A stretch of DNA of 64,000 nt from Candidatus Uhrbacteria bacterium RIFCSPLOWO2_01_FULL_47_17 (GTDB taxonomy: Bacteria > Patescibacteriota > Patescibacteriia > UBA9934 > GWF2-40-263), in contig MGEI01000005.1 of NCBI GenBank assembly GCA_001791305.1, forward strand, positions 210,698 through 274,697, written 5' to 3'. Shown here piece by piece: positions 3,692 to 56,694 of the stretch. The translations under genes and the position numbers were made by a program. Position 1 is the stretch's first letter. Each line of letters opens with the position of its first letter. Below the pieces are notes generated by a model, which saw nothing but the letters and a program-made list of their open reading frames with translations, was not told the origin of the DNA and did no database searches.

Positions 3692-4078
3692 ATGAAAAGA
3701 TTCCCGATTTTCCTTAGTGTTCTCTTTCAGGTCTTTGTCCTTTCAAAGTTACCGGCGTTTGCCGGAGCGGCAGATCCTGCCAGCATTTTAACCGGAGGGT
3801 TAAATGACGCGGCAAAAGATTCTGGGTTTAATCAAACCTTGAGTCTACCCGCGCTCATTGGACGCTTCATTGGTGTCATGCTTGGGCTCATGGGAATCAT
3901 TTTTATTGTGTATCTTGTCTGGGCCGGCATCATGTACATGACCGCAGCCGGAGATGACACAAAGGTCAAAAAAGCAAAGCAAATGATCAATCAATCCATC
4001 ATCGGAATCATCATCATGGTTTCTGCCTACGCCATCTCAAGCTTCATCATTTCTCAACTTACAACCGCCGTTAAATAA
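3692..4078 (+). CDS. TrbC/VirB2-like pilin family protein, paralog 4
   Basis: Signal peptide, then core 'AGIMYMTAAGDDTKVKKAKQMINQSIIGIIIMVSAYAISSFIISQL'. Confidence 0.7.
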   Translation: MKRFPIFLSVLFQVFVLSKLPAFAGAADPASILTGGLNDAAKDSGFNQTLSLPALIGRFIGVMLGLMGIIFIVYLVWAGIMYMTAAGDDTKVKKAKQMINQSIIGIIIMVSAYAISSFIISQLTTAVK

Positions 4079-4111
4079 TCCTTTACACACTGAACCCTAA
4101 TCAACATCTGT

Positions 4112-4522
4112 ATGTTAAAAAATAGTTATCTCAAATTCGGCGCAATGATCGGTTCACTTCCAGCTCTCATTCTTCCCCTTTCTGTTTCTGCTGGTGCAAC
4201 CGCAGCGCCAGGTCAAGGTCTTAATGCTTCTCAAGGCTCTCTCACAACTATTAAAGAAGGGGCGGGTATCACTGCAGGCGCATCGGACCTTCCAACCTTA
4301 ATCGGAAGAATCATTGGTGTTCTTCTTGGAGTCATGGGTATTATCTTGGTTATTTACATTGTTCTTGCGGGTATCACGTACATGACGGCAGGAGGAGATG
4401 ACGCAAAGGTCAAGAAAGCAAAGGCGATGATTCAAACCTCTGTTGTTGGTATCATCATCATCGTTGCGGCGTACTCCATTTCCAGTTTCGTTATTTCACA
4501 GATTATTACAGCAACCGCATAA
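4112..4522 (+). CDS. TrbC/VirB2-like pilin family protein, paralog 5
   Basis: Signal peptide, then core 'AGITYMTAGGDDAKVKKAKAMIQTSVVGIIIIVAAYSISSFVISQI'. It is nearly identical to paralog 4 in the core. Confidence 0.7.
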   Translation: MLKNSYLKFGAMIGSLPALILPLSVSAGATAAPGQGLNASQGSLTTIKEGAGITAGASDLPTLIGRIIGVLLGVMGIILVIYIVLAGITYMTAGGDDAKVKKAKAMIQTSVVGIIIIVAAYSISSFVISQIITATA

Positions 4523-4632
4523 ATACTACGGGGAAAACGGGGCGCAAAAACGTCCTGTTTTTTTGTTCCAATGAAAAAGCCCCGACACCCTTACAGCGAT
4601 TTGCTGTTTTGGATGCCGAGGCAAGGTTGAGA

Positions 4633-5490
4633 TCAGTACTGAGGATCACCCGTTCGAGCGCTGATCGACAGGCGCCCCGAATGGTTGCTGACCGAGTTGT
4701 CGTGGAAGATGGTCCGCCTTGGATTCCCCCAGACGATCTGGAGCGGAAACCCGGGAACCACGATGGTGGAAACTGGAGTCAGGTAGACAAGTTCGATCAC
4801 GTCTCCTTGCTGGTAGCCAAGGAAGATCGTGTCGACTTCAGACGGGTCAATTCCCTTTGCAGGATCTTGGTCCGCCTTCTTGTCGCCGTTCAGGTCCGTA
4901 TAGAAATCCACGAACCGAACTCCTGCGGGTCCTGGGCCTTTGTGTGCGATGGCAAGCAACTGGCCGTTCTTGCGAACAACCACACGCTGCATTCCCGCAC
5001 GAGCAAACCACTTGAGCCCACCCGAGTTGATCGAGTGAAGTTCCGCATGAAACGGAGTCCCACCAAACATGTTCCAGGTTGCGGCTGCGTAGTTGCCGAC
5101 AGGCTCGATGACCTGGGAAGGAGCGTCCATCATGTACAGAGGCATTGCGGCCGCCGGCATGATTGGCGTAACTTCACCCGGAGGCAGAACCGCTTTGGGG
5201 GCGGATTCGAGCGCCTTCAGGGACTTCGACACCCGAGCGAGTTCGGCTTCGAACTTGTCGCTCTTTTTCGCCTTGGCCTTGAGGACGAGGACGTCCACTT
5301 CGAGGAAGCACCTCTCTTGCGCAAGTGCGACCACGAGTTTGTCGGTCGTGGGAACGATCGCTGGATTGTACTTCGTCACGCAGACCGACTTGTCGGCTGC
5401 GATCTCGGCGTCCGTCGGAATCGCTGCCACTTCGGCGAGCGCGATCGAAGACACGAGGGACAGGACGAGGGAAACGATGATCTTGAACAT
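4633..5490 (-). CDS. Secreted hypothetical protein (signal peptide), in a GC-rich segment
   Basis: 285 aa, N-terminus MFKIIVSLVLSLVSSIALAEVAA. Local GC is visibly higher than the flanks. The long plus-strand ORFs here are shadows. Confidence 0.55.
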   Translation of the reverse strand: MFKIIVSLVLSLVSSIALAEVAAIPTDAEIAADKSVCVTKYNPAIVPTTDKLVVALAQERCFLEVDVLVLKAKAKKSDKFEAELARVSKSLKALESAPKAVLPPGEVTPIMPAAAMPLYMMDAPSQVIEPVGNYAAATWNMFGGTPFHAELHSINSGGLKWFARAGMQRVVVRKNGQLLAIAHKGPGPAGVRFVDFYTDLNGDKKADQDPAKGIDPSEVDTIFLGYQQGDVIELVYLTPVSTIVVPGFPLQIVWGNPRRTIFHDNSVSNHSGRLSISARTGDPQY

Positions 5491-5559
5491 GGGAACTCCC
5501 GTGGTCCGAGTCGGACCGATTGTCTGTTTCAGACCGACTCGGAACCGTTCCTTGTCGAT

Positions 5560-6123
5560 CTATTTTCCGTACACCTTCTTGCGCACCTCTTTGAGGTTTT
5601 GCGCAGCGCATGCAGCGACTTCACCGTCTGTGCCAGGCGGACGTCCGCTCGGACACGCTGTCAGACCTCCGCCTGCCACTTGCGCGGCTTGCGGTTGGCT
5701 TAGCAAGGAAACCGGTACCTCACCGAGTCGCGGAAGTTGTCCCGGCACGTAGCCAAGGCTTGCCGCTTCTGCTGCGAGGATCGCAGGCGAGACGCCGTAT
5801 GGATTGGCGCCGTACGTTCCGTACGCGCCGTAGCCGTAGGTGTACCCAGCCTGGACATCAGAACGAACCGCGTCCTGGCCGAGCGTCGCCGGCATGCCTT
5901 TCGCGATCGCCGCTTGCGCGACGTCGCCAGACTGCAAGGTCTGCACACGCCGCGTTTCCGCATCGAGCAGGTTCCGAGCTCCGCCCGAGGTGCCACTGAA
6001 GTTCACCTCGAGCTTGGTCGTCCGAGCCGGCTTTCCCGCTTGCGCAGGCTCCGTCTCAACGATCGAGGTTTTCATCTGGGCGCAACTTGCGCACAGGAGC
6101 AAACTGAGTGCCAAGAATTTCAT
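5560..6123 (-). CDS. Gly/Tyr-rich secreted lipoprotein-like hypothetical protein
   Basis: 187 aa with signal and lipobox-like N-terminus MKFLALSLLLCASCAQ, and a low-complexity YTYGYGAYGTYGANPYG region. GC-rich. Confidence 0.5.
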   Translation of the reverse strand: MKFLALSLLLCASCAQMKTSIVETEPAQAGKPARTTKLEVNFSGTSGGARNLLDAETRRVQTLQSGDVAQAAIAKGMPATLGQDAVRSDVQAGYTYGYGAYGTYGANPYGVSPAILAAEAASLGYVPGQLPRLGEVPVSLLSQPQAAQVAGGGLTACPSGRPPGTDGEVAACAAQNLKEVRKKVYGK

Positions 6124-6877: not shown

Positions 6878-9313
6878 TCACTCACACTCAAGGTCTCTTC
6901 GCCACTCATACGAGTAGCCCGCGCATTCAGATGCACTGATTTTTTGACTCCTTCGACGCGGCTGTGTCGCACGCGTTCCAGAAACCGGAACTGGCGCAAT
7001 CACTTGTGCGCTCACGGGAGCAGACGGAGCGGGAGGCTGTACGGTTGGCTGAGGAGCCGGGGCCGTCATCTGGTTGATGAGCTTCGCAGGCAGACTCGCC
7101 GGAGCTTCCGCCGCATAATGTGCGTTGATGTCGGACTCAATCCACGGCCATGAGGCGAGCCCAAGGACGAGGATAAGGGCGACACTGCGCAACCACCAGT
7201 TACGTCGATAATCAATGCTTTTCGGCATTCCGGTTTCGACACTGGTTTCTCGACTCACTTCTTCCATTCGTCGGACAGCCTTCCAAAGAAGGAACCCGGC
7301 CCCCGAAAAGATGAGGATCGATTGCACAATGCGTGATCCCATAATCCATCCGACCACATCACTGAAGGACTTGCCCAACCAGTGAGCTGCCAACGCTCCA
7401 ATTATGGCTACAAAAACAATGGTCGAAAGAGCACCGAATAGACGCGTAGTCTTGCGCGCGCGCTGACGAGCTTCCTCACCGAACTCATACCCAGACAATC
7501 CCATCTGGGATGCAAGGGCGAAGAACGTGGGGACGCAAATCAGCAAGCGAAAGATGAGCGGTGTTTTCAACGAAAGGAGAACGCTGAAAATACCCACATG
7601 AATGAAAAGAAACATGATCAGGATGCGTCCCTTATTGACCAGCCAGTCTTTGTGAACGTTCGGAAAGAACCGTGTCACAATCGACAGCAGGCCTTGAATA
7701 GCCGTGAAGGAAAACAGTTCGATGCACGCGAGAATTCCGCCACCTGCGACAAGCGCAACGGCGAATTCATGCGGCAGGAGTCGTTCCATGACGTCGGCCG
7801 TGATAAGGATGGCTGCGGGAATTCCCGTTGTGATTCCGAAAACCACGAACAGAAACCGAGTCCATCCGGAGAAATTCCACGCAAGCGCAAGGCAAAGCAG
7901 TGGAAGCCCACCGTAGGCGATATCGATGTTCGAGAACGTGAGGGGGTGATGCAAGCTCACCGCAAACGCGCCGAAAAGCACAAGTCCGAGGAACATGGCG
8001 AACAACGCCGTGAATCCAATGAAGCTCGCAAGAGCGTATTTGCCAATGGTTTGCGCAAACACCCCGACAGCTTTTTCGACTCGCACACCAGTGGCGAGCG
8101 CGGTACCAGTTACAGGATCCTGTGCGTTATCGAATGCATTCTTTGCGTGTTCAAACGCAAGACGCATCCTGTTCTCGATGGTGAGCGTAGAACCGAGCCA
8201 CATCTGAAGATGTGTTTGGATCGCCGCGTACTCATCGTCACTCAGGCCATTCGCCTGATTCGCGTCTGTAACGAACATGTCCCCAAGATGATTGATTTTC
8301 TCAGGGCTCTGAGCGATGTCGTTTGCGAGATCGATGATGAGCTTTTGTTCAAGCGGCGTCCGTGTCGCAACTTTCTGCGTCAGGAGCTTCATGAGCAAAA
8401 GGCCCTTCTCACTCACTTCGACTTTCTTTGGCGCCAACGGATCCTTCAGCACAAGCGCTGCTTTCGCGAGCGCGAGCAATTCGGGATCCATCGGATAGAC
8501 GGACGCGATGCGCGTCACGGCAATGGCAAGCGGAACGAGGGTTCCTTTGTGAATCTTTCTCGGAACGAGCACCCGCCGCGTGCGCGGCTGGTTGTTGTTC
8601 TGATTCTGATTCCTGCCACGACCGCCCTGTTGGTCGTTTGGTAGCGGTTCAACGGGAACCTCTTCCCAATGTTCATCGTGTGCAGCTCGCCAATCGTGAG
8701 TAAACTTCCGACCATTGACGCCAGCCAAAATGACGGCGCCGTCTGTGTCGTACTGCAGTTTGCCGTCCTCACCCCATTCCGGAAAAAGCAGACCGTACTT
8801 TACCCAGTAATCGACTCCATTCGTGGATTCGACGTCATAGGCAGAGTCGATCGCACCTGGCTTGTGTACGACCGTCGTAGGTGTCTCTGCAGGATCCGTA
8901 ATCACACTATTCACCGTCTCATGCACCTTCTGTTCCCAAGTATCCGCCGCACCTTCCGCAGCACCAACGATGAGGGCGGGCGCAGCGTGTTTCAACACGT
9001 AACGCACCTGTTTCATGATGTTGCCTTGATCATCGGGGAGAAGACCGTCAAAGTCGATATGTTGGAGGAGCTTTGCGAGAAGCGTTCCACAGCCGACCAG
9101 TGTGAGCCCAAGGGCACGCGGTCCAAGCAGCGCATGAACCTTCAAAAGGTATTCATTGCTGCGCAGCCGAATGATGGCCCTTGCCACAATATTCTTTGTA
9201 CTATTGCCTTTGGCAATTTCTTCGCGAAGAAGCCTGGAGAGCTCCTGGTGAACATAGCGCTCACCAACCTCTGCCCCCATTTCTCCCAAGATACCCTGAA
9301 CATCGAAAGCCAT
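6878..9313 (-). CDS. Large polytopic membrane protein with a ~330-aa N-terminal soluble domain (811 aa). A VirB6/TrbL-like role is speculative.
   Basis: Several clear TM helices in the C-terminal half (e.g. FIGFTALFAMFLGLVLFGAFAV, ILIMFLFIHVGIFSVLLSL) and a Pro/Ala/Gln-rich tail. GC-rich. Downstream of the pilin array. Confidence 0.5.
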   Translation of the reverse strand: MAFDVQGILGEMGAEVGERYVHQELSRLLREEIAKGNSTKNIVARAIIRLRSNEYLLKVHALLGPRALGLTLVGCGTLLAKLLQHIDFDGLLPDDQGNIMKQVRYVLKHAAPALIVGAAEGAADTWEQKVHETVNSVITDPAETPTTVVHKPGAIDSAYDVESTNGVDYWVKYGLLFPEWGEDGKLQYDTDGAVILAGVNGRKFTHDWRAAHDEHWEEVPVEPLPNDQQGGRGRNQNQNNNQPRTRRVLVPRKIHKGTLVPLAIAVTRIASVYPMDPELLALAKAALVLKDPLAPKKVEVSEKGLLLMKLLTQKVATRTPLEQKLIIDLANDIAQSPEKINHLGDMFVTDANQANGLSDDEYAAIQTHLQMWLGSTLTIENRMRLAFEHAKNAFDNAQDPVTGTALATGVRVEKAVGVFAQTIGKYALASFIGFTALFAMFLGLVLFGAFAVSLHHPLTFSNIDIAYGGLPLLCLALAWNFSGWTRFLFVVFGITTGIPAAILITADVMERLLPHEFAVALVAGGGILACIELFSFTAIQGLLSIVTRFFPNVHKDWLVNKGRILIMFLFIHVGIFSVLLSLKTPLIFRLLICVPTFFALASQMGLSGYEFGEEARQRARKTTRLFGALSTIVFVAIIGALAAHWLGKSFSDVVGWIMGSRIVQSILIFSGAGFLLWKAVRRMEEVSRETSVETGMPKSIDYRRNWWLRSVALILVLGLASWPWIESDINAHYAAEAPASLPAKLINQMTAPAPQPTVQPPAPSAPVSAQVIAPVPVSGTRATQPRRRSQKISASECAGYSYEWRRDLECE

Positions 9314-12058: not shown

Positions 12059-13258
12059 TTACTGCCAATATTTTTCATCCACACTCACAGGACTAATGGA
12101 TCTGAGTGTTTGTACGAGTGGTGGAAGGGTTTTTAAAACGTAGTCGATATCCTCCTCAGTCGTAGAATGACCGAGCGAGAAGCGCATGGAGCCGTGGGCA
12201 ACTTCGTAAGGAAAACCGAGGGCGAGGATGACATGGGAAGGGTCGAGTGAGGCCGAAGTACAGGCCGATCCTGTAGACGCGTAAATTCCGGCAGCGTCTA
12301 GATACAAGAGGAGTGCTTCGCCTTCGATGTCGATAAACGATGCATTCACATTATTTGGCAAACGATTCACACGATCACCATTGATGCGTGTGCGCGGAAC
12401 GATCGAGAGAATTCCGTTGATGAGCTTATCGCGAAGTGGCATAAGTCGCGCCGTCTCCTCGACACGTTCCGCTTGCACAAGCTCAAATGCTTTTGCAAAT
12501 CCGATAATGCCCGCGACGTCTTCCGTTCCCGGACGAATCCCGCGTTCTTGTGCGCCGCCAAACATGAGAGGCTCGAGTTTAATTCCGCGCTTCACGTACA
12601 AGAGCCCTGTTCCCTTTGGTCCATAAATTTTCGGACCGTTCATCGTGAGCATGTCGACGTGTAACTTTTCGACATTCATGTCGAGATACGCCGCAGCTTG
12701 GCATGCATCCGTGTGGAACATGAGGTGCGGAAGCTTTTTCTCTTCGCGATATTTCTGAATAATGTTTCCAATTTCCACAATCGGTTGAATCGTTCCAACT
12801 TCATTATTTGCGTACATGACAGAAACGAGAATGGTATCTTCCGTGAGCACTTCTTCGATCTGCTTCGGATCAATCATTCCCTCTTTGCTTGGTTTGAGAT
12901 AGGTCACGCGGAAACCTTCTTTTTTCTCGAGACGAATACAGGCCTCGAGCACAGCGTGGTGCTCGAACGAAGTGGTGATGATGTGCATGCCGAACTGTTT
13001 GTTCATGCGTGCGTAGCCGAGAATCGCGAGGTTGTCCGATTCGGTTCCACCAGATGTAAACAAAATCTCGTCCGGACGAACGTGCAAAAGATTTGCCATC
13101 GAGGAACGAGCTTCTCGCAGCGCATCCGTCGCAACTTTCCCTCGAGAATGAAAACTCGAAGGATTGCCATATTTATCTTCCAGGTACGGCAACATCACCT
13201 CAAGAACACGAGGATCAAGCGGAGTTGTTGCGGCGTGATCAAGATAGATATCGAGCAT
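12059..13258 (-). CDS. nifS: Cysteine desulfurase NifS/IscS
   Basis: 'MLDIYLDHAATTPLDPRVLEVMLPYL...', PLP-lysine region 'SFEHHAV', and 'TGSACTS' active-site Cys. The start was taken at the internal Met (13258) rather than the track start 13279. Confidence 0.85.
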   Translation of the reverse strand: MLDIYLDHAATTPLDPRVLEVMLPYLEDKYGNPSSFHSRGKVATDALREARSSMANLLHVRPDEILFTSGGTESDNLAILGYARMNKQFGMHIITTSFEHHAVLEACIRLEKKEGFRVTYLKPSKEGMIDPKQIEEVLTEDTILVSVMYANNEVGTIQPIVEIGNIIQKYREEKKLPHLMFHTDACQAAAYLDMNVEKLHVDMLTMNGPKIYGPKGTGLLYVKRGIKLEPLMFGGAQERGIRPGTEDVAGIIGFAKAFELVQAERVEETARLMPLRDKLINGILSIVPRTRINGDRVNRLPNNVNASFIDIEGEALLLYLDAAGIYASTGSACTSASLDPSHVILALGFPYEVAHGSMRFSLGHSTTEEDIDYVLKTLPPLVQTLRSISPVSVDEKYWQ

Positions 13259-13294
13259 AAGATTCAAGGACTGTAACAAAAAAGCCGTTGAAAA

Positions 13295-13897
13295 TCAACG
13301 GCTAGGGGTGAGAAGCTTCGCAAGGTCTTTTGCATCAATTTGCCGGCCATATTTCCGCAGAATGATCTGCGTTTTTTTGGACCCGTAATCACACATGACC
13401 AGTCGACCGCAAAGAAGGCCGAAGTTGTGCGAGGATCCCCAGTGATGCGCGTCCTTCACAAGCTCATCCATTGGAACGATTTCAAGAAAGCGGGTTCGAG
13501 CATTATTCTGAAACGTCTTCATGTCCACGAATTCGACCTGCTTCATCACGGAAAACAATCCGCATGAAAAATACGTTGGTGCGATGAATGTGCTTCCGTA
13601 TCGGATGGTGAAATACCACTCCAAAAGGTTTGAAACAAATCCAGCGATCGTTGAGTTACTGTAGACGTGAAACGCGCGTTCATGTCGCAACATGTGCGCA
13701 AACGTTTTTTGTGTGTCTTTCGACCACGCAAGGTCTTGCTTAAACGTATTCCAAAAAAGCTTGGGTCGCACACGCGCAATCTTGATCACAATTCCAAGCC
13801 ACAGAATCGGAATCACGATGCGTGTTGTTCCTTTATGAATTTGCATCCAGACCTCCAAGGAAGAAAAGAATGTATCAAAAAAAGCCGTCTTTGTCAA
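13295..13897 (-). CDS. Hypothetical protein (possibly membrane-associated)
   Basis: 200-aa ORF with no recognisable motif. Hydrophobic segment PILWLGIVIKIA. Confidence 0.4.
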   Translation of the reverse strand: MTKTAFFDTFFSSLEVWMQIHKGTTRIVIPILWLGIVIKIARVRPKLFWNTFKQDLAWSKDTQKTFAHMLRHERAFHVYSNSTIAGFVSNLLEWYFTIRYGSTFIAPTYFSCGLFSVMKQVEFVDMKTFQNNARTRFLEIVPMDELVKDAHHWGSSHNFGLLCGRLVMCDYGSKKTQIILRKYGRQIDAKDLAKLLTPSR

Positions 13898-49860: not shown

Positions 49861-50634
49861 TCACGGCTGAGTTTTTTCATACGTTTCCGCCGCGCCCCAC
49901 AACCCTTCAAACCACGCCATCATCGTGTCGTGGTGCTCCTTCGATGTGATGAGCACACAGTACGCGTTTGCTCTCGAGGAAACATAAAGTGTTTTGTCAT
50001 CGTACAAAAAAATCGTTGTGAGAAATTTTTTGTGCATGACATCTGGCAAAATGCGCACATCGGATTTTCCTTTGTAGTAGTCGCGGTAGATAACTGGGTC
50101 GATTCGCTGTTCCCACAAGTTACGTGTCTCAATCTTGCGATCGATACGACTTCCAACGTATCGCTCGACGAAGGCACTCCCGACTTGCCAGGCGAAATTT
50201 TCTTTTGGCACAACCGAACAAATTTTTTTCGATTTACAATACAACGAATCCATCATCGCGTTCTTCACCGCTTCAAATCCCTCGAAGAACGAGACAGTCG
50301 GCCTGTCGCTCGAGGGGGCAGCCGTCTCGAGTGCCGTCTTCAGAATCTGGATGTCTGCCGTGAGTGCCTCGAGCTCATGCTTCTTTTCTTCGACGAGATG
50401 CTCGAGTTTGTGCAGGGGTTCGAGCACGATCTTTTGATCGCTCTCTTTGCCGGACTTGCTTACGAGCCCTCGACGCTCAAGCGAAGTTAGGGCATAGTAC
50501 ACGGTCGGTCTTTTCTCACCCGTATCCTTAATAATGTCGCGGGGGCTTCTGCGCCCAGCGGCAAGAGAGAGGTAAACGGTGATCTCGGATTCCGACAACC
50601 CAAGTTTTTTAAGTATTTTGCGAGGATCGTGCAT
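49861..50634 (-). CDS. TrmB-family transcriptional regulator (paralog 1)
   Basis: N-terminal winged HTH 'ILKKLGLSESEITVYLSLAAGRRSPRDIIKDTGEKRPTVYYALTSLERRGLV', coiled-coil linker, and a C-terminal TrmB-like effector domain. Confidence 0.65.
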   Translation of the reverse strand: MHDPRKILKKLGLSESEITVYLSLAAGRRSPRDIIKDTGEKRPTVYYALTSLERRGLVSKSGKESDQKIVLEPLHKLEHLVEEKKHELEALTADIQILKTALETAAPSSDRPTVSFFEGFEAVKNAMMDSLYCKSKKICSVVPKENFAWQVGSAFVERYVGSRIDRKIETRNLWEQRIDPVIYRDYYKGKSDVRILPDVMHKKFLTTIFLYDDKTLYVSSRANAYCVLITSKEHHDTMMAWFEGLWGAAETYEKTQP

Positions 50635-50721
50635 ATATCGTCTAATGAGTATTAGACAGAATTGTACACTTTTGCGCAAAAAGATACAGTCTAGGCAGGA
50701 CGTACATTAAAAGGAGACACA

Positions 50722-52573: not shown

Positions 52574-53578
52574 TTAGAACACCATGCCTTGAACGGCAAA
52601 CGTCGTCTGGATATGAGAATGACGTTCGATGGTGCGAGCGATTTCCTGAACCGTGTCATAGTCCGCGTCCGGATCATGGTGTGTGGTGATGATGCGCTTC
52701 GGCTTGGCTTCGATCGCGTGTTGTGCCGCGGCTTCCGCGGTGATGTGACCGTAGCCTTGCCGTTTGTCTTCATACATCTTTTTCGTGTATTGCACTTCCG
52801 TCACAACCACATCTGCACCTTCCCAAAGGCGTACGATGTTTTTGTCGAACTCATCCTTTCCGTGCTCATGGTCGAGTGTCACGGCAATGACATGACCACA
52901 CCACTCAAAGCGATATCCGTACGAACCGTTTGGGTGATTCATCGGGAGAACCCAAACCTTGATCGGCTGCAAATCGTTTTCGATTTCGAAATGCTCATTG
53001 GGTTCAATCACACGGAGATCCCGTTTGGAACCAAGGTATTCCCACGGAACCGGGAAAACAGGAGGACGAAAGTTGAACTGTTGCATCACCTCAAAGAGGT
53101 TCATGCCGCAGTGAAGACCGCCGATCATGTGAATTTTGGTTTTCGGCGAGAAGATTGGCTTGAAGGCCTGTGCCCCAAAGAGATGGTCTCCGTGTACATG
53201 CGAACTCATGAACGTGAGATCCAGTTCTTCTTCTTGGTTCAGATGCCCGCTTTCGAGCAATGCTTGCCCAAGGTTTTTGATGTCACTGCCTTGGGCGACA
53301 TACTGGTTCAAAAACACATCAACATCTTTGATGGTTTTGCCCGGCATGAGATAACGCTTCATGAGCTCATTGCCAATGTCAATCATGCCTGAGCCGAAGT
53401 CAAAGATGATGAGCTTGCGTCCGAATTGGAGAGTATGACAGGTAGTGTGTCCACCAATCTTTGTGTCACCAATTACGAACGAACCGCGCACGCCATAGAA
53501 TTTGCCTTTTGGCTTCATCATGTCGAGCATTGTTTCTTGCGAAAATCCATTTCCCTGAAGTGCGGGAATTCGAGCCAT
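52574..53578 (-). CDS. MBL-fold metallo-hydrolase
   Basis: 'MSSHVHGDHLFG' HxHxDH motif and downstream His/Asp ligands. 334 aa. Confidence 0.75.
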   Translation of the reverse strand: MARIPALQGNGFSQETMLDMMKPKGKFYGVRGSFVIGDTKIGGHTTCHTLQFGRKLIIFDFGSGMIDIGNELMKRYLMPGKTIKDVDVFLNQYVAQGSDIKNLGQALLESGHLNQEEELDLTFMSSHVHGDHLFGAQAFKPIFSPKTKIHMIGGLHCGMNLFEVMQQFNFRPPVFPVPWEYLGSKRDLRVIEPNEHFEIENDLQPIKVWVLPMNHPNGSYGYRFEWCGHVIAVTLDHEHGKDEFDKNIVRLWEGADVVVTEVQYTKKMYEDKRQGYGHITAEAAAQHAIEAKPKRIITTHHDPDADYDTVQEIARTIERHSHIQTTFAVQGMVF

Positions 53579-53810
53579 GTCTTCCTCCTGAAATTTGGAA
53601 GGTACTTCCGATGAGGTAGATTCCTCATTTCAGCAGGCAACACCGTGTTCCCAGCTGAAGAAAGGATCAAGGACCTTAAGGCTTTTTGTGGTTTTTGTCA
53701 AGGGATTCGACGTGTCTGTCGATATATCAAACTCTTGTTACAGAAACAGCATAAATCATTTGAGAATATTTGAAATATGCCTTGTCGAAGAGTTCGACAA
53801 CACAAAAACA

Positions 53811-53931
53811 AAACCTCCAAAATTGGATGAGATGCGCCGCGCTGGAGGAAATAAATGTTTGAGTCGTAGACTATCTACGGCGAAAACATTTATTTCCGAA
53901 GCGCAAGCAGATCGCCAATTTTGGAGGTTTT
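53811..53931. repeat. Nested inverted-repeat / multi-hairpin element adjacent to tRNA-His
   Basis: Outer IR AAACCTCCAAAATTGG (53811-53826) / CCAATTTTGGAGGTTT (53916-53931). Inner 13-bp IR GGAAATAAATGTT...AACATTTATTTCC. Innermost CGTAGActaTCTACG. Confidence 0.55.
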
Positions 53932-53932
53932 G

Positions 53933-54008
53933 TGGGGCGGTCAACGGGAATTGAACCCGTAATAGAGGTACCACAAACCCCTGTGATAACCTTTTCACCA
54001 TGACCGCC
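53933..54008 (-). tRNA. tRNA-His (anticodon GTG) with encoded G-1 and CCA
   Basis: Reverse complement G-GCGGTCA-TG-GTGA-AAAGGTTA-TCAC-A-GGGGT-TTGTGGT-ACCTC-TATT-ACGGG-TTCAATT-CCCGT-TGACCGC-C-CCA. All stems pair. The extra 5' G pairs with C73. Confidence 0.8.
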
Positions 54009-54075
54009 ATATAGGTTAGCGAGCAGAGTATAACGTTCAGAAAGAAAAAGATCAATAGTTCGGAGTATTTGATAT

Positions 54076-54106
54076 CAATGAAAAAAACCTCGCAAGCGTA
54101 TTGCGA
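54076..54106 (-). terminator. Rho-independent terminator ending the zinc-ribbon operon
   Basis: Minus-strand reading CCTCGCAATACGCTTGCGAGGTTTTTTT. Confidence 0.6.
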
Positions 54107-54117
54107 GGCAAGCGTCT

Positions 54118-54567
54118 CTAGCCAGTTTTGCGTTTTGCAAGCGTGGCATTTGTCTTTTTGCCGCAGGAAACGCAGGCATTCGCTTCGACCTGGATGACAG
54201 CACCACAGGTGCAAGCCTTCGTCTGTTCCCAAGTTTTGTCGACGGCCGTTTGGCAGCCGGGACAGAACTTGTATTCCTTTTTGAGCGTACGTTCGCACGC
54301 GCACTTTACGGGAATAAGATCGGTTACGAGCTGGACTTTGCCGACACTAGTTCCACATTCGTGGCAGAAACGCGCGTCGTGTTCCAGTTTTTCGCCACAG
54401 GCCGAGCAGAAGGTCCAAGGAGCTCCGCTGTGTGGTGTTGCGTGATTCACGGAGCGTAGATGCGATGCACGCGTGCTTGGGTAACTCGGTTGCGGTGCAA
54501 CGTACGGCGCTTGATTGCGCGAATTGTCGCTCCAGGAACCGCCGTATGAGGATGACTTATACGCCAT
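54118..54567 (-). CDS. Multi-zinc-ribbon protein (third gene of the operon)
   Basis: Start at the ATG after GGAGG (MAYKSSSYGG...). Three CxxC...CxxC pairs (CSACGEK..CHECG; CACERT..CPGCQ; CTCGAV..CVSCG). GC-rich. Confidence 0.55.
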   Translation of the reverse strand: MAYKSSSYGGSWSDNSRNQAPYVAPQPSYPSTRASHLRSVNHATPHSGAPWTFCSACGEKLEHDARFCHECGTSVGKVQLVTDLIPVKCACERTLKKEYKFCPGCQTAVDKTWEQTKACTCGAVIQVEANACVSCGKKTNATLAKRKTG

Positions 54568-55279
54568 GACAAACCTCCATGAAGACGTTGTTGCGATTCG
54601 TTCCACATCGATAACAGAATCGACGCGGTTTCTCAAATGTCGAAAGGCCACATTTGGGGCAATGAGTTCCCTCTTCACAGAAGAGACTCGAGCCTTTTGT
54701 ACTCCAGTCGTGCACCGTGAGAAGTCTGGTGTGTTGTTTCCATTCCGTCAGATACGCAGGTTCGCACATCGTTGGATTCATAAGTGCAACACGAGCGTTT
54801 CCTGGAATTCCGTGCGCATGCGCGCGAGCAATGATCACTTGCGCGATCAACATGGATGTTGCGATTCCACTCGACAATTTGTGAATGAGACTCCAGTCGA
54901 GTCCGAACACACCCTGGTCTGTATGTGGGTCATTCGGATCCGAGAAGTAAATCCATCGCACAAAACCGCCGAAGCCGAGTTTGTGATCATCAAGGTAGCA
55001 ACGATCAATTGGGTCCACACCTTTGAATCCTTGCACCATCTCGCCGTGCAATCCACTTTTCATTTCGTTTGGAATCATGAAAACGGAAATGTCTTTTTGA
55101 TGATGTGTTACACCCTTCCCCATTCCGTAACCGATCCACGGACACGTGCGAGCGTCTTCTTGTGTCATAAGAGACGCATCCATGAGAAAGTTTTTTTCAA
55201 ACGGTGTTCGAAGGAATGGCTGAAGCGATTTTACGGGCATACGTTCTGTGCCCGGATGCACATAGATGCGCGGTCGCAT
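54557..55279 (-). CDS. Hypothetical protein with a C-terminal zinc ribbon (second gene of the operon)
   Basis: Start MRPRIYVHPG. C-terminal 'CPKCGLSTFEKPRRFCYRCG'. Its stop overlaps the RBS of the downstream gene. Confidence 0.5.
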   Translation of the reverse strand: MRPRIYVHPGTERMPVKSLQPFLRTPFEKNFLMDASLMTQEDARTCPWIGYGMGKGVTHHQKDISVFMIPNEMKSGLHGEMVQGFKGVDPIDRCYLDDHKLGFGGFVRWIYFSDPNDPHTDQGVFGLDWSLIHKLSSGIATSMLIAQVIIARAHAHGIPGNARVALMNPTMCEPAYLTEWKQHTRLLTVHDWSTKGSSLFCEEGTHCPKCGLSTFEKPRRFCYRCGTNRNNVFMEVCHGV

Positions 55280-55317
55280 GAGACCTCCTCGTGTTGGAAG
55301 AAAAAACTCTGTGAAGA

Positions 55318-55788
55318 TCACAGAGTCAGACGAGGATCTTGGAGCGGCAGGAATTCGATTCCGCCGGCTTCTTCGACCACGGTACCCGGGTTTGCACCGC
55401 AATCCGGGCAGTGCAAAACGGGGTAGGAGAATGACTTCGTTCCGCACTGCGGGCAAAAGTCCGAGCCATGGGCGAAGATGTTGAAGAGGCTGTCCGCCCA
55501 ATCACCAACCGTGACGAGGCGATGCGTGAGACGCATGTGTGCGAGTTCGCGATCGAACTGACCCGTCAGGTTCACGATCGTCGCATCCATGTCGGGCGAC
55601 ATTCCATCAAGAATCGCTTGACGACACTTGCGCGCGATGCCGATCATCGACTTCACGGCGTTTTGGTCCGTCGAGCCTGGGTTGAAACGAATCATGAACA
55701 TGGGCGTGAGCTCCCGATAGCGATTGGCCGGCATGCTGGACTTTCCAAACACGTGACCGTGAACCTTCGCGAAATCGTCTGTAAACAT
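55318..55788 (-). CDS. Hypothetical protein with a C-terminal zinc ribbon (first gene of the operon)
   Basis: Start MFTDDFAKVHG after GGAGG. C-terminal 'CPQCGTKSFSYPVLHCPDCG'. Confidence 0.5.
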   Translation of the reverse strand: MFTDDFAKVHGHVFGKSSMPANRYRELTPMFMIRFNPGSTDQNAVKSMIGIARKCRQAILDGMSPDMDATIVNLTGQFDRELAHMRLTHRLVTVGDWADSLFNIFAHGSDFCPQCGTKSFSYPVLHCPDCGANPGTVVEEAGGIEFLPLQDPRLTL

Positions 55789-55890
55789 GATGTGCCTCCG
55801 TGTTGGTGTTGGAAAGGACAATCTCTATGATCAAGATAATGCATTCCCGGTAAAGTCGAAATAGGCATTGTCGACCTTTTCGACAACATT

Positions 55891-56694
55891 TTGACTATCA
55901 CGGGTTCGCATGAGATCATAGAATATATGCATATGAACTACACATCTGACATTCTCAAAGGCCTTGAAGCTTTTGGTCTTGACGAAAAAGAAGTCAAAGT
56001 CTACCTCGCAGGGCTAGAAATCGGCACGGCAACGGTTCTCGAACTATCAAGAAGAACCGAATTACCGCGCACGACTCTCTACCCGATTCTCGAACGTCTC
56101 GAACACCACGGAGTGTTCAAGGTCGGAAAGCAGAAAAACACAACGGTGTATATCGCGGAACTTCCAGATGTCCTCAATCGTAATCTTGAAGATCGCGCGG
56201 CATTATTCTCAAAAACTCTCCCAGCACTCCAGACGATTCACGGATCAGTTCACGAAGGACCGGGTGTGACGTTTTACGAAGGATCGGATGGATTCAAAAG
56301 AGTTTGGAAAGCGATTATCGGATCAGGCGTGAAGGAATACAGATTGATCACAAGCGGAACCGGACTCCTTGACTACGTGAAGGAACCGTATCTTGTGAAG
56401 CGTGTGATTGCGGAGCGCATGCAAAAGAAAATTTTGAGCAAACAACTCATTCCAGACAATCGCGATACGCGAAAGATTGTGGAAAAAGATTCGGAAGAAT
56501 TGCGCGAGTCACGTTTTTTGCCGACCGGTACCGTGCTCCCGTCGACAGTGATTATTTTTGCGGATCACGTTGCATTTATTACGACACGAAAAGAAAACAC
56601 GATGATTTTGCTTGCGAGTGGTGACGTGGCGCTGACGTACAAGACGTTGTTTGATTTGATTTGGGAAAAGGCGGAGAAGGCTGATACACTGTAG
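55891..56694 (+). CDS. TrmB-family transcriptional regulator (paralog 2)
   Basis: 'ILKGLEAFGLDEKEVKVYLAGLEIGTATVLELSRRTELPRTTLYPILERLEHHGV' winged HTH. Same architecture as 49861..50634. The start may be an internal Met. Confidence 0.65.
   Translation: MTITGSHEIIEYMHMNYTSDILKGLEAFGLDEKEVKVYLAGLEIGTATVLELSRRTELPRTTLYPILERLEHHGVFKVGKQKNTTVYIAELPDVLNRNLEDRAALFSKTLPALQTIHGSVHEGPGVTFYEGSDGFKRVWKAIIGSGVKEYRLITSGTGLLDYVKEPYLVKRVIAERMQKKILSKQLIPDNRDTRKIVEKDSEELRESRFLPTGTVLPSTVIIFADHVAFITTRKENTMILLASGDVALTYKTLFDLIWEKAEKADTL

What the first reader, a model, noticed from the sequence alone, without database searches (positions are those of the whole stretch)
54118..55788. GC-rich three-gene operon in which every protein ends in, or consists of, CxxC...CxxC zinc ribbons
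Three consecutive minus-strand genes (55788-55318, 55279-54557, 54567-54118) each have a GGAGG RBS. Gene 2 and gene 3 overlap by 11 nt. A strong terminator follows at 54076-54106. Genes 1 and 2 carry C-terminal zinc ribbons (CPQCG...CPDCG; CPKCG...CYRCG). Gene 3 is a string of three zinc ribbons after a low-complexity Ser/Pro/Tyr N-terminus. The ~130-200 aa N-terminal domains have no recognisable signature. Local GC is clearly above the genome background, about 55-57% by eye, which suggests foreign origin. The trio sits between tRNA-His and a TrmB regulator. I cannot assign it to any known system.
Basis: partly seen in the sequence, partly recalled or inferred. Interest (0 to 1): 0.65.

Follow-up and report, generated by a model that had tools for sequence, protein, structure and literature searches.

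The report
Uncharacterised zinc-ribbon module under TrmB control
Three real small zinc-ribbon genes in an ultra-small (Candidatus Uhrbacteria-like) bacterium belong to a protein family with no description in the libraries searched; the family is shared with DPANN archaea, its predicted fold matched no solved structure, and it is wired to a TrmB-type regulator and an RNase-Z-like hydrolase, but its biochemical function is still unknown.

Summary
The three minus-strand genes, their GGAGG sites, the 11-nt overlap, the terminator and the zinc ribbons are all real. GC is 52.7% overall, not 55-57%, and g2 is at background. A terminator-like hairpin follows g1, so the coupled unit is g2-g3. 'Foreign origin' is not supported. 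The genes sit in conserved PolA-TrmB synteny across diverged Uhrbacteria, show the same GC pattern in relatives, are under purifying selection, and have no phage, plasmid, viral or defence hits. g2 founds a ~200-aa domain family (about 47 clusters; CPR bacteria plus Woesearchaeota). It has no Pfam, NCBIfam, PHROG or PADLOC match. The AlphaFold model is confident (pLDDT 96) but has no Foldseek match in PDB or BFVD. g3 follows g2 in 20 of 20 loci. Its N-terminal WKxxSPDYP peptide is fused to g2-like domains elsewhere, which links the two proteins. g1 is a fast-evolving truncated paralogue of g2's C-terminal half. A TTGTCGA-N5-TCGACAA palindrome lies between the divergent TrmB and g1 promoters and again upstream of the nearby RNase-Z-like MBL gene. 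In other lineages the MBL gene is adjacent to g2 or g2-like genes. Best reading: a regulator-controlled module pairing the new domain with an MBL phosphodiesterase. The substrate (nucleic-acid ends or nucleotides) is only inferred.

The parts
55318..55788 (-). g1: 156-aa protein, a truncated paralogue of the C-terminal half of g2 plus one C4 zinc ribbon (C112/C115/C127/C130). It evolves fast and comes in two allelic types.
   Evidence: ORF and RBS. BLASTP against g2 gives 28% identity over 85 aa, E 6e-10. The g2 profile hits the g1 protein P0011 at E 1.5e-9 over profile positions 139-234. For window vs L009, dN is 0.69 for g1 against 0.14 for g2.
55298..55327 (-). Terminator-like hairpin (10 bp) plus T-run, overlapping the g1 stop codon and lying 15 nt before the g2 RBS.
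   Evidence: Equivalent hairpin plus T-run follows g1 in L001, L009 and L006, with different sequences.
54557..55279 (-). g2: 240-aa protein made of an undescribed ~200-aa alpha/beta domain and a C-terminal C4 zinc ribbon (C207/C210/C222/C225). Nearly invariant residues are K55, G56, T58, H78, Y95, G102, F103, R108, W109, G126, D128, G138, G157 and L166.
   Evidence: AlphaFold2 gives pLDDT 96.3 and pTM 0.93. Foldseek has no hit in PDB or BFVD.
54118..54567 (-). g3: 149-aa partner protein. It has a conserved N-terminal peptide (MAYKSSSY.., consensus M-x-W/Y-K-x-x-S-P-D-Y-P), a Pro/Ser-rich linker and three C4 zinc ribbons. Its start overlaps the end of g2 by 11 nt.
   Evidence: DZR 9e-12. g3-like ORFs follow g2 in every locus with room. 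Motif specificity is shown. A natural g2-g3 fusion, P0042, is shown.
54080..54109 (-). Intrinsic terminator of the g2-g3 unit (9-bp stem, 5 GC pairs, T7).
   Evidence: Equivalent terminators follow g3 in L001 and L009.
55868..55886 (.). Operator O1: perfect palindrome TTGTCGA-N5-TCGACAA, lying between the back-to-back TrmB and g1 promoters.
   Evidence: It is conserved at the same place in L001, L004, L006, L009, L011, L014, L016, L025, L034 and L039. Variants occur in L035, L037, L027 and L013.
55927..56694 (+). TrmB-family wHTH regulator, divergently transcribed. The extended -10 (TGaGATCAT, ending at 55919) lies about 7 nt before the ATG and there is no SD, so the mRNA is probably leaderless.
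   Evidence: Pfam TrmB at 44.9 bits against a cut-off of 25.6. The gene is adjacent and divergent in 15 of 23 distinct g2 loci.
53782..53800 (.). Operator O2: a second perfect copy of the palindrome (TTGTCGAAGAGTTCGACAA), 205 nt upstream of the MBL gene.
   Evidence: These are the only two exact copies in 64 kb (expected 0.09). It is conserved upstream of the MBL gene in L001, L002, L006 and L009.
53579..53722 (-). MBL promoter region and leader. It contains an everted repeat TCGACAgacacGTCGA (53722-53707), a -35 TTGACA (53701-53696), a -10 TAAGGT (53678-53673) and a conserved ~90-nt structured leader that can pair with the SD.
   Evidence: alignment with L001 and L009. Searches give the fold (z = -2.67). 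There is no Rfam match.
52574..53578 (-). MBL-fold metallo-hydrolase (Lactamase_B_2, HVHGDH motif) of the RNase Z / PhnP / Apyc1-like phosphodiesterase branch. It is the functional partner of the g2 family.
   Evidence: Orthologues are adjacent to g2 or g2-like genes in L013, L017, L018, L022, L043 and L044.

Best explanation
The locus is a vertically inherited chromosomal module of a Candidatus Uhrbacteria-like (CPR/Patescibacteria) genome. It is not a foreign island.

Shown:
1. g2 is a member of a protein family absent from every library searched here. The family has a ~200-aa alpha/beta domain and is found in CPR bacteria and, without zinc ribbons, in DPANN (Woesearchaeota) archaea.
2. g3, a multi-zinc-ribbon protein, is the obligate neighbour of g2. 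The two are linked at protein level. The g3 N-terminal peptide (M-x-W-K-x-x-S-P-D-Y-P) occurs fused C-terminally to a g2 domain in one CPR protein. It also occurs as the N-terminus of the archaeal g2-like proteins.
3. g1 is a truncated, rapidly diverging paralogue of the C-terminal half of g2 (helix-strand-helix-helix plus ribbon). It lacks the conserved K/T/H/Y/R/D residues and has its own terminator.
4. A 6-N5-6 palindrome sits between the divergent TrmB and g1 promoters, and a second exact copy precedes the RNase-Z-like MBL gene 0.5 kb beyond g3.
5. In other lineages the orthologous MBL gene lies directly beside the g2 or g2-like gene. It is immediately upstream in CPR locus L013 and immediately downstream, with overlapping or abutting reading frames, in five DPANN loci. 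A divergent wHTH regulator accompanies it in every locus where the upstream flank is available.

Inferred:
- The TrmB-like protein binds the palindromes and co-regulates itself, g1/g2-g3 and the MBL gene in response to an unknown ligand.
- The g2 domain is a catalytic or ligand-binding subunit. It works in one pathway with the MBL phosphodiesterase on a phosphodiester substrate, most plausibly nucleic-acid ends or (cyclic) nucleotides taken up for salvage.
- g3 docks on g2 through its N-terminal peptide.
- The four to five zinc ribbons are a CPR-specific add-on that tethers the complex to nucleic acid or to a partner protein.
- g1 acts as a non-catalytic modulator through the module it shares with g2.
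For: Genes are real and constrained.

Family size and distribution:
- 47 representative clusters at E<1e-30.
- Uhrbacteria and other CPR MAGs.
- Candidatus Woesearchaeota for P0115.

No known family or fold:
- No family match, and the PDB sequence profile hits ribbons only.
- AlphaFold2 gives pLDDT 96.3. The best Foldseek hit is E 0.84 with TM <= 0.27 in PDB and E 0.61 in BFVD.

g2-g3 link:
- A g3-like ORF lies directly after g2 in all 20 CPR loci with at least 300 nt downstream.
- The regex WK..SP.Y hits only g3 starts and the N-terminus of archaeal P0072 in 764,198 six-frame residues.
- P0042 is a natural fusion.

g1 paralogy.

Regulator and operator:
- A TrmB-like gene is divergent in 15 of 23 loci.
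- The palindrome is conserved, and its sequence co-varies with regulator divergence.
- There are two exact copies in the window against 0.09 expected.
- The second copy is conserved upstream of the MBL gene in relatives.

MBL link:
- L013 has TrmB | MBL-g2-g3.
- L017, L018, L022, L043 and L044 have a g2-like gene followed by an MBL gene with abutting or overlapping frames.
- All these MBLs are mutually homologous.
- Their best similarities are to RNase Z, PhnP and cyclic-nucleotide phosphodiesterase models.
- In two archaeal loci a TIM-barrel (AP_endonuc_2-like) plus AAA_33 P-loop kinase gene follows the MBL gene. This fits nucleic-acid-end or nucleotide chemistry.
Against: - No biochemical function is demonstrated for any component.
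- The g2 domain has no recognisable catalytic motif.
- The MBL gene is not within 6 kb of g2 in several CPR loci with long flanks: L011, L014, L016, L026, L035, L037, L039 and L041. The coupling is therefore recurrent, not universal.
- Regulator binding to the palindrome is inferred from position and conservation only.
- The archaeal regulators are tandem Lrp/AsnC-type, not TrmB-type.
- The zinc-ribbon role is a guess.
- The TIM-barrel/kinase neighbour is seen in only two loci.
Confidence: 0.45

Rival explanations
1. g1, g2 and g3 are accessory transcription factors or sensors, not enzymes. The g2 domain binds a small ligand. With its zinc-ribbon partners it modulates the adjacent wHTH regulator or RNA polymerase, acting as an anti-repressor or co-regulator. 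The MBL gene is simply one regulated target.
For: - The g2 family is constantly paired with a divergently transcribed wHTH regulator, of two different regulator families, in bacteria and archaea.
- Zinc ribbons are typical of transcription factors, and there are weak TFIIB, RpoM and L37e-type ribbon similarities.
- No catalytic motif is recognisable.
Against: - The archaeal members have no ribbons at all, yet keep abutting or overlapping frames with the MBL gene.
- Nearly invariant K, T, H, Y, R and D residues across 58 sequences look more like an active or substrate site than a protein-protein surface.
- Divergent regulator-target arrangements are common for ordinary regulated operons.
Confidence: 0.2
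2. This is the first reader's reading: a horizontally acquired, GC-rich island encoding a defence-like, toxin-antitoxin-like or otherwise mobile system inserted next to a tRNA gene.
For: - GC is modestly raised in g1 and g3.
- A tRNA-His gene is adjacent.
- The stretch between g3 and the MBL gene varies between relatives: 837-876-aa and 340-360-aa ORFans in L006 and L009, and other genes in L001.
- g1 behaves like an exchangeable cassette. The window's g1 is 55% identical to the L006 type but 37% to the L001/L009 type, although PolA says the opposite.
Against: - g2-g3 sits beside TrmB and PolA in genomes as distant as 54-57% PolA identity.
- The same GC pattern is seen in relatives.
- dN/dS is about 0.1.
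- There are no PADLOC, PHROG, phage, plasmid or IMG/VR matches.
- No integrase or direct repeats flank the trio.
- The tRNA-His has its own promoter and terminator and is absent from this position in relatives.
Confidence: 0.07
3. The module is a zinc-handling one. The five zinc ribbons (20 Cys) act as a zinc store or chaperone that serves the di-zinc MBL enzyme.
For: Every protein carries C4 ribbons, and the linked enzyme is a zinc-dependent MBL hydrolase.
Against: - Ribbon-less g2 relatives keep the MBL linkage.
- Some CPR g2 proteins lack the ribbon.
- The regulator is TrmB-type, not Zur/ArsR-type.
- The conserved core is the non-ribbon domain.
Confidence: 0.05
4. There is no functional unit. 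These are three lineage-specific ORFans of a genome rich in small zinc-ribbon proteins, and they are juxtaposed by chance.
For: g1 is restricted to one clade and is separately terminated. The family is tiny: 10 and 4 hits in 5.8 billion clusters by word-indexed search.
Against: - g2-g3 adjacency holds in 20 of 20 loci, and there are two independent fusions.
- g1 is a paralogue of g2.
- The operator is shared with the MBL gene.
Confidence: 0.08

Closest known systems
TrmB/TrmBL1 (Tgr) regulators of Thermococcales and their TGM operator (TATCAC-N5-GTGATA). This comparison is from my own knowledge of the literature, not from a tool result.
   Same: The N-terminal wHTH of the TrmB Pfam family scores above the gathering cut-off. 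The operator is a hexamer-N5-hexamer inverted repeat placed at promoters, and it is present at more than one promoter of a small regulon.
   Different: The operator sequence is different. No TrmB sugar-binding C-terminal domain was detected. NCBIfam TrmBL1 and TrmB scores are about 20 bits against cut-offs of 500-650. The targets are not sugar transport or glycolysis genes. Binding is untested.
RNase Z / PhnP / Apyc1-type MBL phosphodiesterases (Pfam Lactamase_B_2, COG1235-like)
   Same: The partner enzyme has the HxHxDH motif and the Lactamase_B_2 domain. Its best sequence similarities are to RNase Z structures, the cyclic-nucleotide-degrading phosphodiesterase model and PhnP.
   Different: Scores are far below every equivalog cut-off, for example RNase Z at 42 bits against 293. 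The protein has a ~115-aa N-terminal extension. None of those enzymes is known to need a g2-like partner. The substrate is unknown.
Generic double zinc ribbon (DZR, PF12773) proteins
   Same: g3 matches DZR above the gathering score (45.4 bits against 27.3). g1 and g2 end in single C4 ribbons.
   Different: DZR is a structural module with no defined function. The conserved N-terminal WKxxSPDYP peptide of g3 and its strict pairing with g2 are not features of the Pfam family.
Polynucleotide kinase-phosphatase style RNA/DNA end-healing cassettes (Pnkp-like). This is an analogy from my own knowledge only.
   Same: In two archaeal loci the g2-like and MBL genes are followed by a TIM-barrel (AP_endonuc_2-like) plus P-loop AAA_33 kinase protein. 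That combines a phosphodiesterase or 3'-end enzyme with a kinase.
   Different: No ligase, Hen1 or RtcB homologue was found. The kinase gene is absent from the bacterial loci. Its Pfam matches are weak: AP_endonuc_2 scores 27.8 bits, below the cut-off of 31.1. This is a lead, not a membership claim.

Membership tests
Pfam DZR / C4 zinc-ribbon proteins (g3; ribbons of g1 and g2) | Paired CxxC...CxxC knuckles and an HMM score above the gathering cut-off | tested here: met
   g3 scores 45.4 bits against a cut-off of 27.3 (E 9.2e-12) and has 12 Cys in three ribbons. The g1 and g2 ribbons are visible in the sequence but score below the cut-off (18.9 and 11.2 bits).
Any curated family for the non-ribbon domains of g1 and g2 (Pfam-A, NCBIfam, PHROGs, PADLOC) | A significant HMM match outside the ribbon | tested here: not met
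   Searches show only ribbon matches. Scanning all 58 family members individually against Pfam also gave only ribbon families. The ribbon-less relatives have no Pfam match.
Known protein folds (solved structures, viral predicted structures) | A structural match to the confident AlphaFold2 model (Foldseek E<1e-3 or TM>0.5) | tested here: not met
Anti-phage defence systems / toxin-antitoxin | A match to a defence or TA protein model, location in mobile or variable islands, and presence on phages or plasmids | tested here: not met
   PADLOC gave nothing for g2, g3, the MBL protein or the g2-like proteins. For g1 it gave only a weak match over the ribbon (DpdJ, E 0.011, 10.5 bits). There are no phage, plasmid or IMG/VR relatives. 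Core synteny is conserved.
tRNA-modification / tRNA-His maturation enzymes (e.g. Thg1-like) | Homology to a tRNA-modifying family, and conserved linkage to tRNA genes | tested here: not met
   No Pfam or NCBIfam match was found. tRNA-His is next to the trio only in this genome. The gene already encodes G-1 and CCA, as read from the sequence.
TrmB-family transcription regulators (neighbouring gene) | An N-terminal TrmB-type wHTH | tested here: met
   PF01978 scores 44.9 bits against a cut-off of 25.6.
TrmB-family transcription regulators (neighbouring gene) | A C-terminal sugar-binding effector domain, and equivalog-level similarity to TrmB or TrmBL1 | tested here: not met
   NCBIfam TrmBL1 scores 21.6 bits against 650, and TrmB 19.7 against 500. 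No second Pfam domain was found.
TrmB-family transcription regulators (neighbouring gene) | Binds a palindromic operator at regulated promoters | not testable with these tools
   Only positional and comparative evidence is available.
RNase Z (partner MBL gene) | MBL HxHxDH motif, a flexible-arm exosite, and an equivalog score | tested here: not met
   The HVHGDH motif is present and Lactamase_B_2 scores 42.7 bits. TIGR02651 scores 42.3 bits against a cut-off of 293, and only the C-terminal third aligns. The PDB RNase Z match is E 0.0026.
Cyclic-nucleotide-degrading MBL phosphodiesterase (Apyc1-like) | Full-length similarity above the NF041851 cut-off | tested here: not met
   The window MBL protein scores 31.7 bits and the L017 MBL protein 65.2 bits, against a cut-off of 400. 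PADLOC gave no hit.

The most novel reading that the evidence does not exclude
The g2 domain is a new enzyme fold shared, probably by inter-domain transfer, between ultra-small episymbiotic bacteria (CPR) and archaea (DPANN). It acts together with an RNase-Z-like MBL phosphodiesterase, and in archaea also with a TIM-barrel/P-loop kinase. Together they form a ligand-regulated pathway for healing or scavenging nucleic-acid ends or nucleotides. This is a salvage or repair route specific to organisms that cannot make their own nucleotides. In CPR bacteria the enzyme has been split and decorated with zinc-ribbon tethering modules (g3, g1).
Probability: 0.25. Interest if true: 0.75.

Novelty: categorically new. 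Interest (0 to 1): 0.6.

Why it matters
CPR bacteria and DPANN archaea make up a large share of microbial diversity. They depend on hosts for nucleotides and lipids, and most of their lineage-specific genes are unannotated.

This locus offers an unusually well-defined handle on one such family:
- a confidently predicted fold with no detected structural relative;
- a partner fixed by gene order and by two independent fusions;
- a candidate regulator with a precise operator;
- a recurrent enzymatic partner of known chemistry, an MBL phosphodiesterase.

These features make the family directly testable in vitro without cultivating the organism. If the g2 domain is an enzyme, it would add a new catalytic fold and possibly a symbiont-specific nucleic-acid salvage or repair step. 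If it is a sensor or co-regulator, it would define a new regulatory partner of wHTH factors common to both domains.

There is also an annotation lesson. Public gene calls miss g3 and g1, or replace them with opposite-strand shadow ORFs.

Tried and rejected
- Library scans. Pfam, NCBIfam, PHROGs and PADLOC on g1-g3 gave only zinc-ribbon hits. A per-member Pfam scan of 58 family members gave the same.
- PDB sequence profile search. It returned only ribbon-level noise (L37e and S27ae-type ribbons, E>0.03).
- First AlphaFold2 run. With 10 sequences it gave a poor N-terminal half (pLDDT 57) and was discarded in favour of the 58-sequence run.
- Third word-indexed search. Run with the big alignment, it added little: 13 hits.
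- Metagenome scan.
- Mobile-element checks. Phage, plasmid and viral-contig searches were all empty.
- Literature. Searches for Uhrbacteria with zinc ribbon, DUF3307, Patescibacteria with TrmB and MBL, and CPR/DPANN dark-matter families found nothing specific.
- Ideas considered and dropped:
  - Thg1-like or tRNA-His function. There is no homology, and the tRNA linkage is not conserved.
  - T-fold, PD-(D/E)xK or ligase KxDG readings of the conserved residues. Neither motif nor fold supports them.
  - g2/g3 as one gene split by a frameshift. The overlap or short gap is conserved and both genes are under purifying selection.
  - Recent HGT inferred from GC. The same pattern appears in relatives.
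- PDB search with the archaeal TIM-barrel/kinase proteins gave no hit.
Full report
**Observation**

ORF listing and direct reading of the minus strand confirm three consecutive genes:
- g1: 55788-55318, 156 aa.
- g2: 55279-54557, 240 aa.
- g3: 54567-54118, 149 aa.

Each is preceded by GGAGG 5-7 nt before the ATG. g2 and g3 overlap by 11 nt. A 9-bp GC-rich hairpin plus T7 (54109-54080) follows g3. ARAGORN and Rfam place tRNA-His at 53933-54007 on the same strand. The divergent gene at 55891/55927-56694 has a TrmB-type wHTH.

g3 has 12 Cys in three ribbons and matches Pfam DZR (E 9e-12).

Two statements need correction.
- GC is 52.7% for the trio against 46.7% for the window (94th percentile). 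By gene it is g1 56.9%, g3 54.9% and g2 48.7%, so g2 is at background.
- A 10-bp hairpin plus T-run (55327-55298) overlaps the g1 stop codon. Hairpins with T-runs of different sequence occupy the same place after g1 in L001, L009 and L006. g1 is therefore a separately terminated or attenuated unit, and the tightly coupled pair is g2-g3.

**Are they genes, and whose?**

The word-indexed search found only 10 relatives of g2 and 4 of g1 among 5.8 billion clusters. The one named hit is from a Candidatus Uhrbacteria MAG. A JGI contig (L024) is 100% identical to the window.

Nei-Gojobori dN/dS between the window and its relatives is 0.09-0.13 for g2, 0.10-0.18 for g3 and 0.16-0.44 for g1. All three are therefore constrained coding genes.

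The surrounding genes are ordinary chromosomal ones: PolA, DNA pol III delta, an SNase-like nuclease, RmuC, an XerC/D-like recombinase, DsbA and a cytidylyltransferase.

**Not a foreign island**

- In the Uhrbacteria MAG GCA_026395055.1 (L001) and in L009, the order holA-PolA-TrmB | g1-g2-g3 is the same as here.
- In Uhrbacteria whose PolA is only 54-57% identical (L011, L016), TrmB | g2-g3 is still next to PolA.
- The GC ranking g1 > g3 > g2 is reproduced in L001 and L009 on the same ~46-47% background. It reflects the genes themselves, not recent transfer.
- tblastn against phage and plasmid collections and a scan of IMG/VR found nothing.
- PADLOC gave nothing for g2, g3, the MBL protein or the g2-like proteins. 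Its only g1 hit is a weak ribbon-level match (DpdJ, E 0.011).
- The tRNA-His has its own promoter-like site and terminator. It is not at this position in relatives, which carry large ORFans there instead.

**The g2 family**

An exhaustive profile search of 1.84 billion representatives found 47 clusters at E<1e-30. It also found weaker, ribbon-less relatives: P0072, P0088, P0133, P0114, P0115 and P0132. One of these is annotated as Candidatus Woesearchaeota. None has a Pfam domain outside ribbons.

Across 58 sequences, H78 and G138 are invariant. K55, G56, T58, Y95, G102, F103, R108, W109, G126, D128, G157 and L166 are at least 90% conserved.

**g1 is a half-copy of g2**

- BLASTP aligns g1 residues 57-141 with g2 residues 152-236 (28% identity, E 6e-10).
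- The g2 profile finds the window's g1 (P0011) and other g1-type proteins over profile positions ~139-234 at about 1e-9.
- g1 thus has the helix-strand-helix-helix-ribbon module, with the shared 'L(V/L)TVxDW' motif. It lacks the N-terminal region that carries the conserved polar residues.
- g1 occurs only in the window's close clade.
- It diverges about five times faster than g2. For window vs L009, dN is 0.69 against 0.14.
- The window's g1 is 55% identical to the L006 type but only 37% to the L001/L009 type, although PolA identity runs the other way (76% against 86-88%). This suggests cassette-like exchange.

**g2 and g3 belong together**

In all 20 distinct CPR loci with at least 300 nt downstream of g2, a zinc-ribbon ORF starts between -11 and +66 nt from the g2 stop. 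Public gene calls often miss it or call an opposite-strand shadow ORF.

All these ORFs begin with the same peptide, M-x-(W/Y)-K-x-x-S-P-D-Y-P, followed by a Pro/Ser/Tyr-rich linker. The strict pattern WK..SP.Y was searched in 764,198 residues of six-frame translation of the window and all fetched loci. It occurs only at g3 starts and at the very N-terminus of the archaeal g2-like protein P0072 (MVWKTWSPGY). P0133 (MVWKIGSFGY) and the longer archaeal proteins carry looser versions. In P0042 a ribbon-less g2 domain runs directly into MVWKNDSPDYP, a Pro-rich linker and ribbons. These are two independent fusion arrangements, so the g3 peptide and the g2 domain are functionally linked. Physical docking is inferred.

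**Regulation**

A TrmB-like gene is divergently adjacent to the cluster in 15 of 23 distinct g2 loci. A g1 or DUF3307 gene is sometimes interposed.

In the shared intergenic region, loci from lineages 38-100% identical in g2 carry the palindrome TTGTCGA-N5-TCGACAA (window 55868-55886). It lies 4 nt upstream of the TrmB -35 (TTGACT). By eye, it also lies 7 nt upstream of a conserved TTCGAC-16-TATCTT promoter-like site facing g1 (my reading). More diverged regulators are accompanied by variant palindromes: TTGTCGG-N5-CCGACAA, TTGTCA-N4-TGACAA and TTGTACAA. One-mismatch copies precede g2 even where no TrmB gene is adjacent (L005, L015).

The window holds exactly two perfect copies, against 0.09 expected for the looser pattern. 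The second, at 53782-53800, lies 205 nt upstream of the MBL-fold gene at 52574-53578. The same site precedes the orthologous MBL gene in L001, L002, L006 and, with one change, L009.

The inference is that one wHTH regulator controls itself, g1/g2-g3 and the MBL gene. The hexamer-N5-hexamer geometry resembles the Thermococcales TGM operator of TrmBL1. That comparison is from my own knowledge, not a test.

**The MBL partner**

The MBL protein has the HVHGDH motif and the Lactamase_B_2 domain. It has only weak, sub-threshold similarity to RNase Z, the cyclic-nucleotide-degrading phosphodiesterase model and PhnP.

Orthologous MBL genes (reciprocal hits) lie in these positions:
- directly upstream of g2 in the compact CPR locus L013, which reads TrmB-like | MBL-g2-g3;
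- directly downstream of the g2-like gene, with abutting or overlapping frames, in archaeal loci L017, L018, L022, L043 and L044. A divergent tandem Lrp/AsnC-type wHTH regulator is present wherever upstream sequence is available.

In L022 and L044 an orthologous 562/588-aa protein follows. It combines a weak AP_endonuc_2-like TIM barrel with an AAA_33 P-loop kinase.

The MBL gene is not near g2 in several other CPR loci. The link is therefore recurrent in three independent settings but not obligatory.

**Interpretation**

Shown:
- a conserved g2-g3 pair;
- g1 as a paralogue of g2;
- a family with no known relatives;
- a shared operator;
- recurrent MBL adjacency.

Inferred:
- The TrmB-like protein binds the operator in response to a ligand.
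- The g2 domain is a catalytic or ligand-binding subunit acting with the MBL phosphodiesterase on nucleic-acid ends or nucleotides.
- g3 docks by its N-terminal peptide.
- The ribbons are CPR-specific tethers, because archaeal relatives lack them.
- g1 modulates through the shared C-terminal module.

The main rival is that g2/g3 are non-enzymatic co-regulators of the wHTH factor. The defence or foreign-island reading, the zinc-storage reading and the 'unrelated ORFans' reading are each contradicted by specific results listed under rival explanations.

**Verdict**

Its 'foreign, GC-rich operon' interpretation is not. What is there is a small but real protein family absent from every library searched, with a confidently predicted fold that has no detected relative. 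The family is embedded in a definable regulon with an MBL phosphodiesterase and is shared between CPR bacteria and DPANN archaea. Function remains inferred. The system is experimentally tractable in vitro.

Noticed in passing
window 53579-53722 (-); L001 14222-14376; L009 ~13240-13394: The MBL gene has a conserved promoter region: an everted repeat TCGACAgacacGTCGA abutting a -35 TTGACA, and a -10 TAAGGT. It also has a ~90-nt conserved 5' leader with nested hairpins. In that leader a UCCUUU stretch can pair either with an upstream GAGGA or with the Shine-Dalgarno sequence (MFE -32.4 kcal/mol, z = -2.67). There is no Rfam match. Only three close sequences are available, so there is almost no covariation evidence. 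L006 lacks the leader.
   Followed up: partly
window 55298-55327 (-); L001 ~7945-7975; L009 ~7805-7835; L006 ~8438-8470: A terminator-like hairpin plus T-run follows g1 in every genome that has g1, with a different stem sequence in each lineage. In the window it overlaps the g1 stop codon and leaves no room for a g2 promoter. g2-g3 expression must therefore come from read-through or from a promoter inside g1.
   Followed up: partly
window 55318-55788 versus L001 7486-7938, L009 7342-7782 and L006 8001-8432: g1 exists in two sequence types that do not follow the genome phylogeny. The window's g1 is 55% identical to L006 and 37% to L001 and L009, while PolA is 76% against 86-88%. Third-position GC is 0.69 in the window and in L009 but 0.52 in L001.
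   Followed up: partly
L009 7360-7776 (-) and 8659-9102 (-); L004 1523-1960; L005 1227-1472: Public gene calls for related contigs miss g1 and g3. In L009 they call opposite-strand shadow ORFs (138 and 147 aa) instead. In L004 and L005 they leave the g3-like ORF uncalled or absorb it into a wrong downstream call. Protein databases therefore under-represent the g3 family.
   Followed up: yes
between g3 and the MBL gene: window 53579-54117; L001 9235-14375; L006 8872-14219; L009 9158-13394: This interval is hypervariable between close relatives. The window holds only tRNA-His. L006 and L009 hold a 837-876-aa ORFan plus a 340-360-aa ORFan, both with no Pfam match. L001 holds the 352-aa ORFan, a DUF7980 protein, and SBP_bac_11/VWA proteins.
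   Followed up: partly
window 55891-55933 (+): The TrmB-like gene has no Shine-Dalgarno sequence. Its extended -10 (TGaGATCAT, ending at 55919) lies about 7 nt before the ATG at 55927, which suggests a leaderless mRNA. The same layout is seen in L001 and L011.
   Followed up: no
L004 566-898; L011 5663-5998; L035 ~5594-5959; L041 ~3831-4202; L016 7048-7386: A small DUF3307 membrane protein occupies the first position of the cluster, between TrmB and g2, in several lineages that lack g1. In L016 it lies just after g3. Its function is unknown, and the only paper found merely lists the domain in a jumbo phage.
   Followed up: partly
window 49861-50679 (-): A second TrmB-family paralogue (272 aa) lies 5 kb away next to tRNA-Arg. 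A paralogue sits at the equivalent place in L009. No copy of the TTGTCGA-N5-TCGACAA palindrome was found beside it.
   Followed up: no
window 4609-5703 (+) and 6878-9313 (-): These are the GC-richest parts of the window (0.61 at 5-6 kb and about 0.545 at 7-9 kb). They coincide with long ORFs of 364 and 811 aa that have no Pfam match. Long ORFs also run on the opposite strand there.
   Followed up: no
L022 2559-4245; L044 6075-7841: In two Woesearchaeota-type loci the g2-like and MBL genes are followed by an orthologous 562/588-aa protein (31% identity). It joins a weak AP_endonuc_2-like TIM barrel to an AAA_33 P-loop kinase. It has no PDB sequence relative and is absent from the bacterial loci.
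   Followed up: partly
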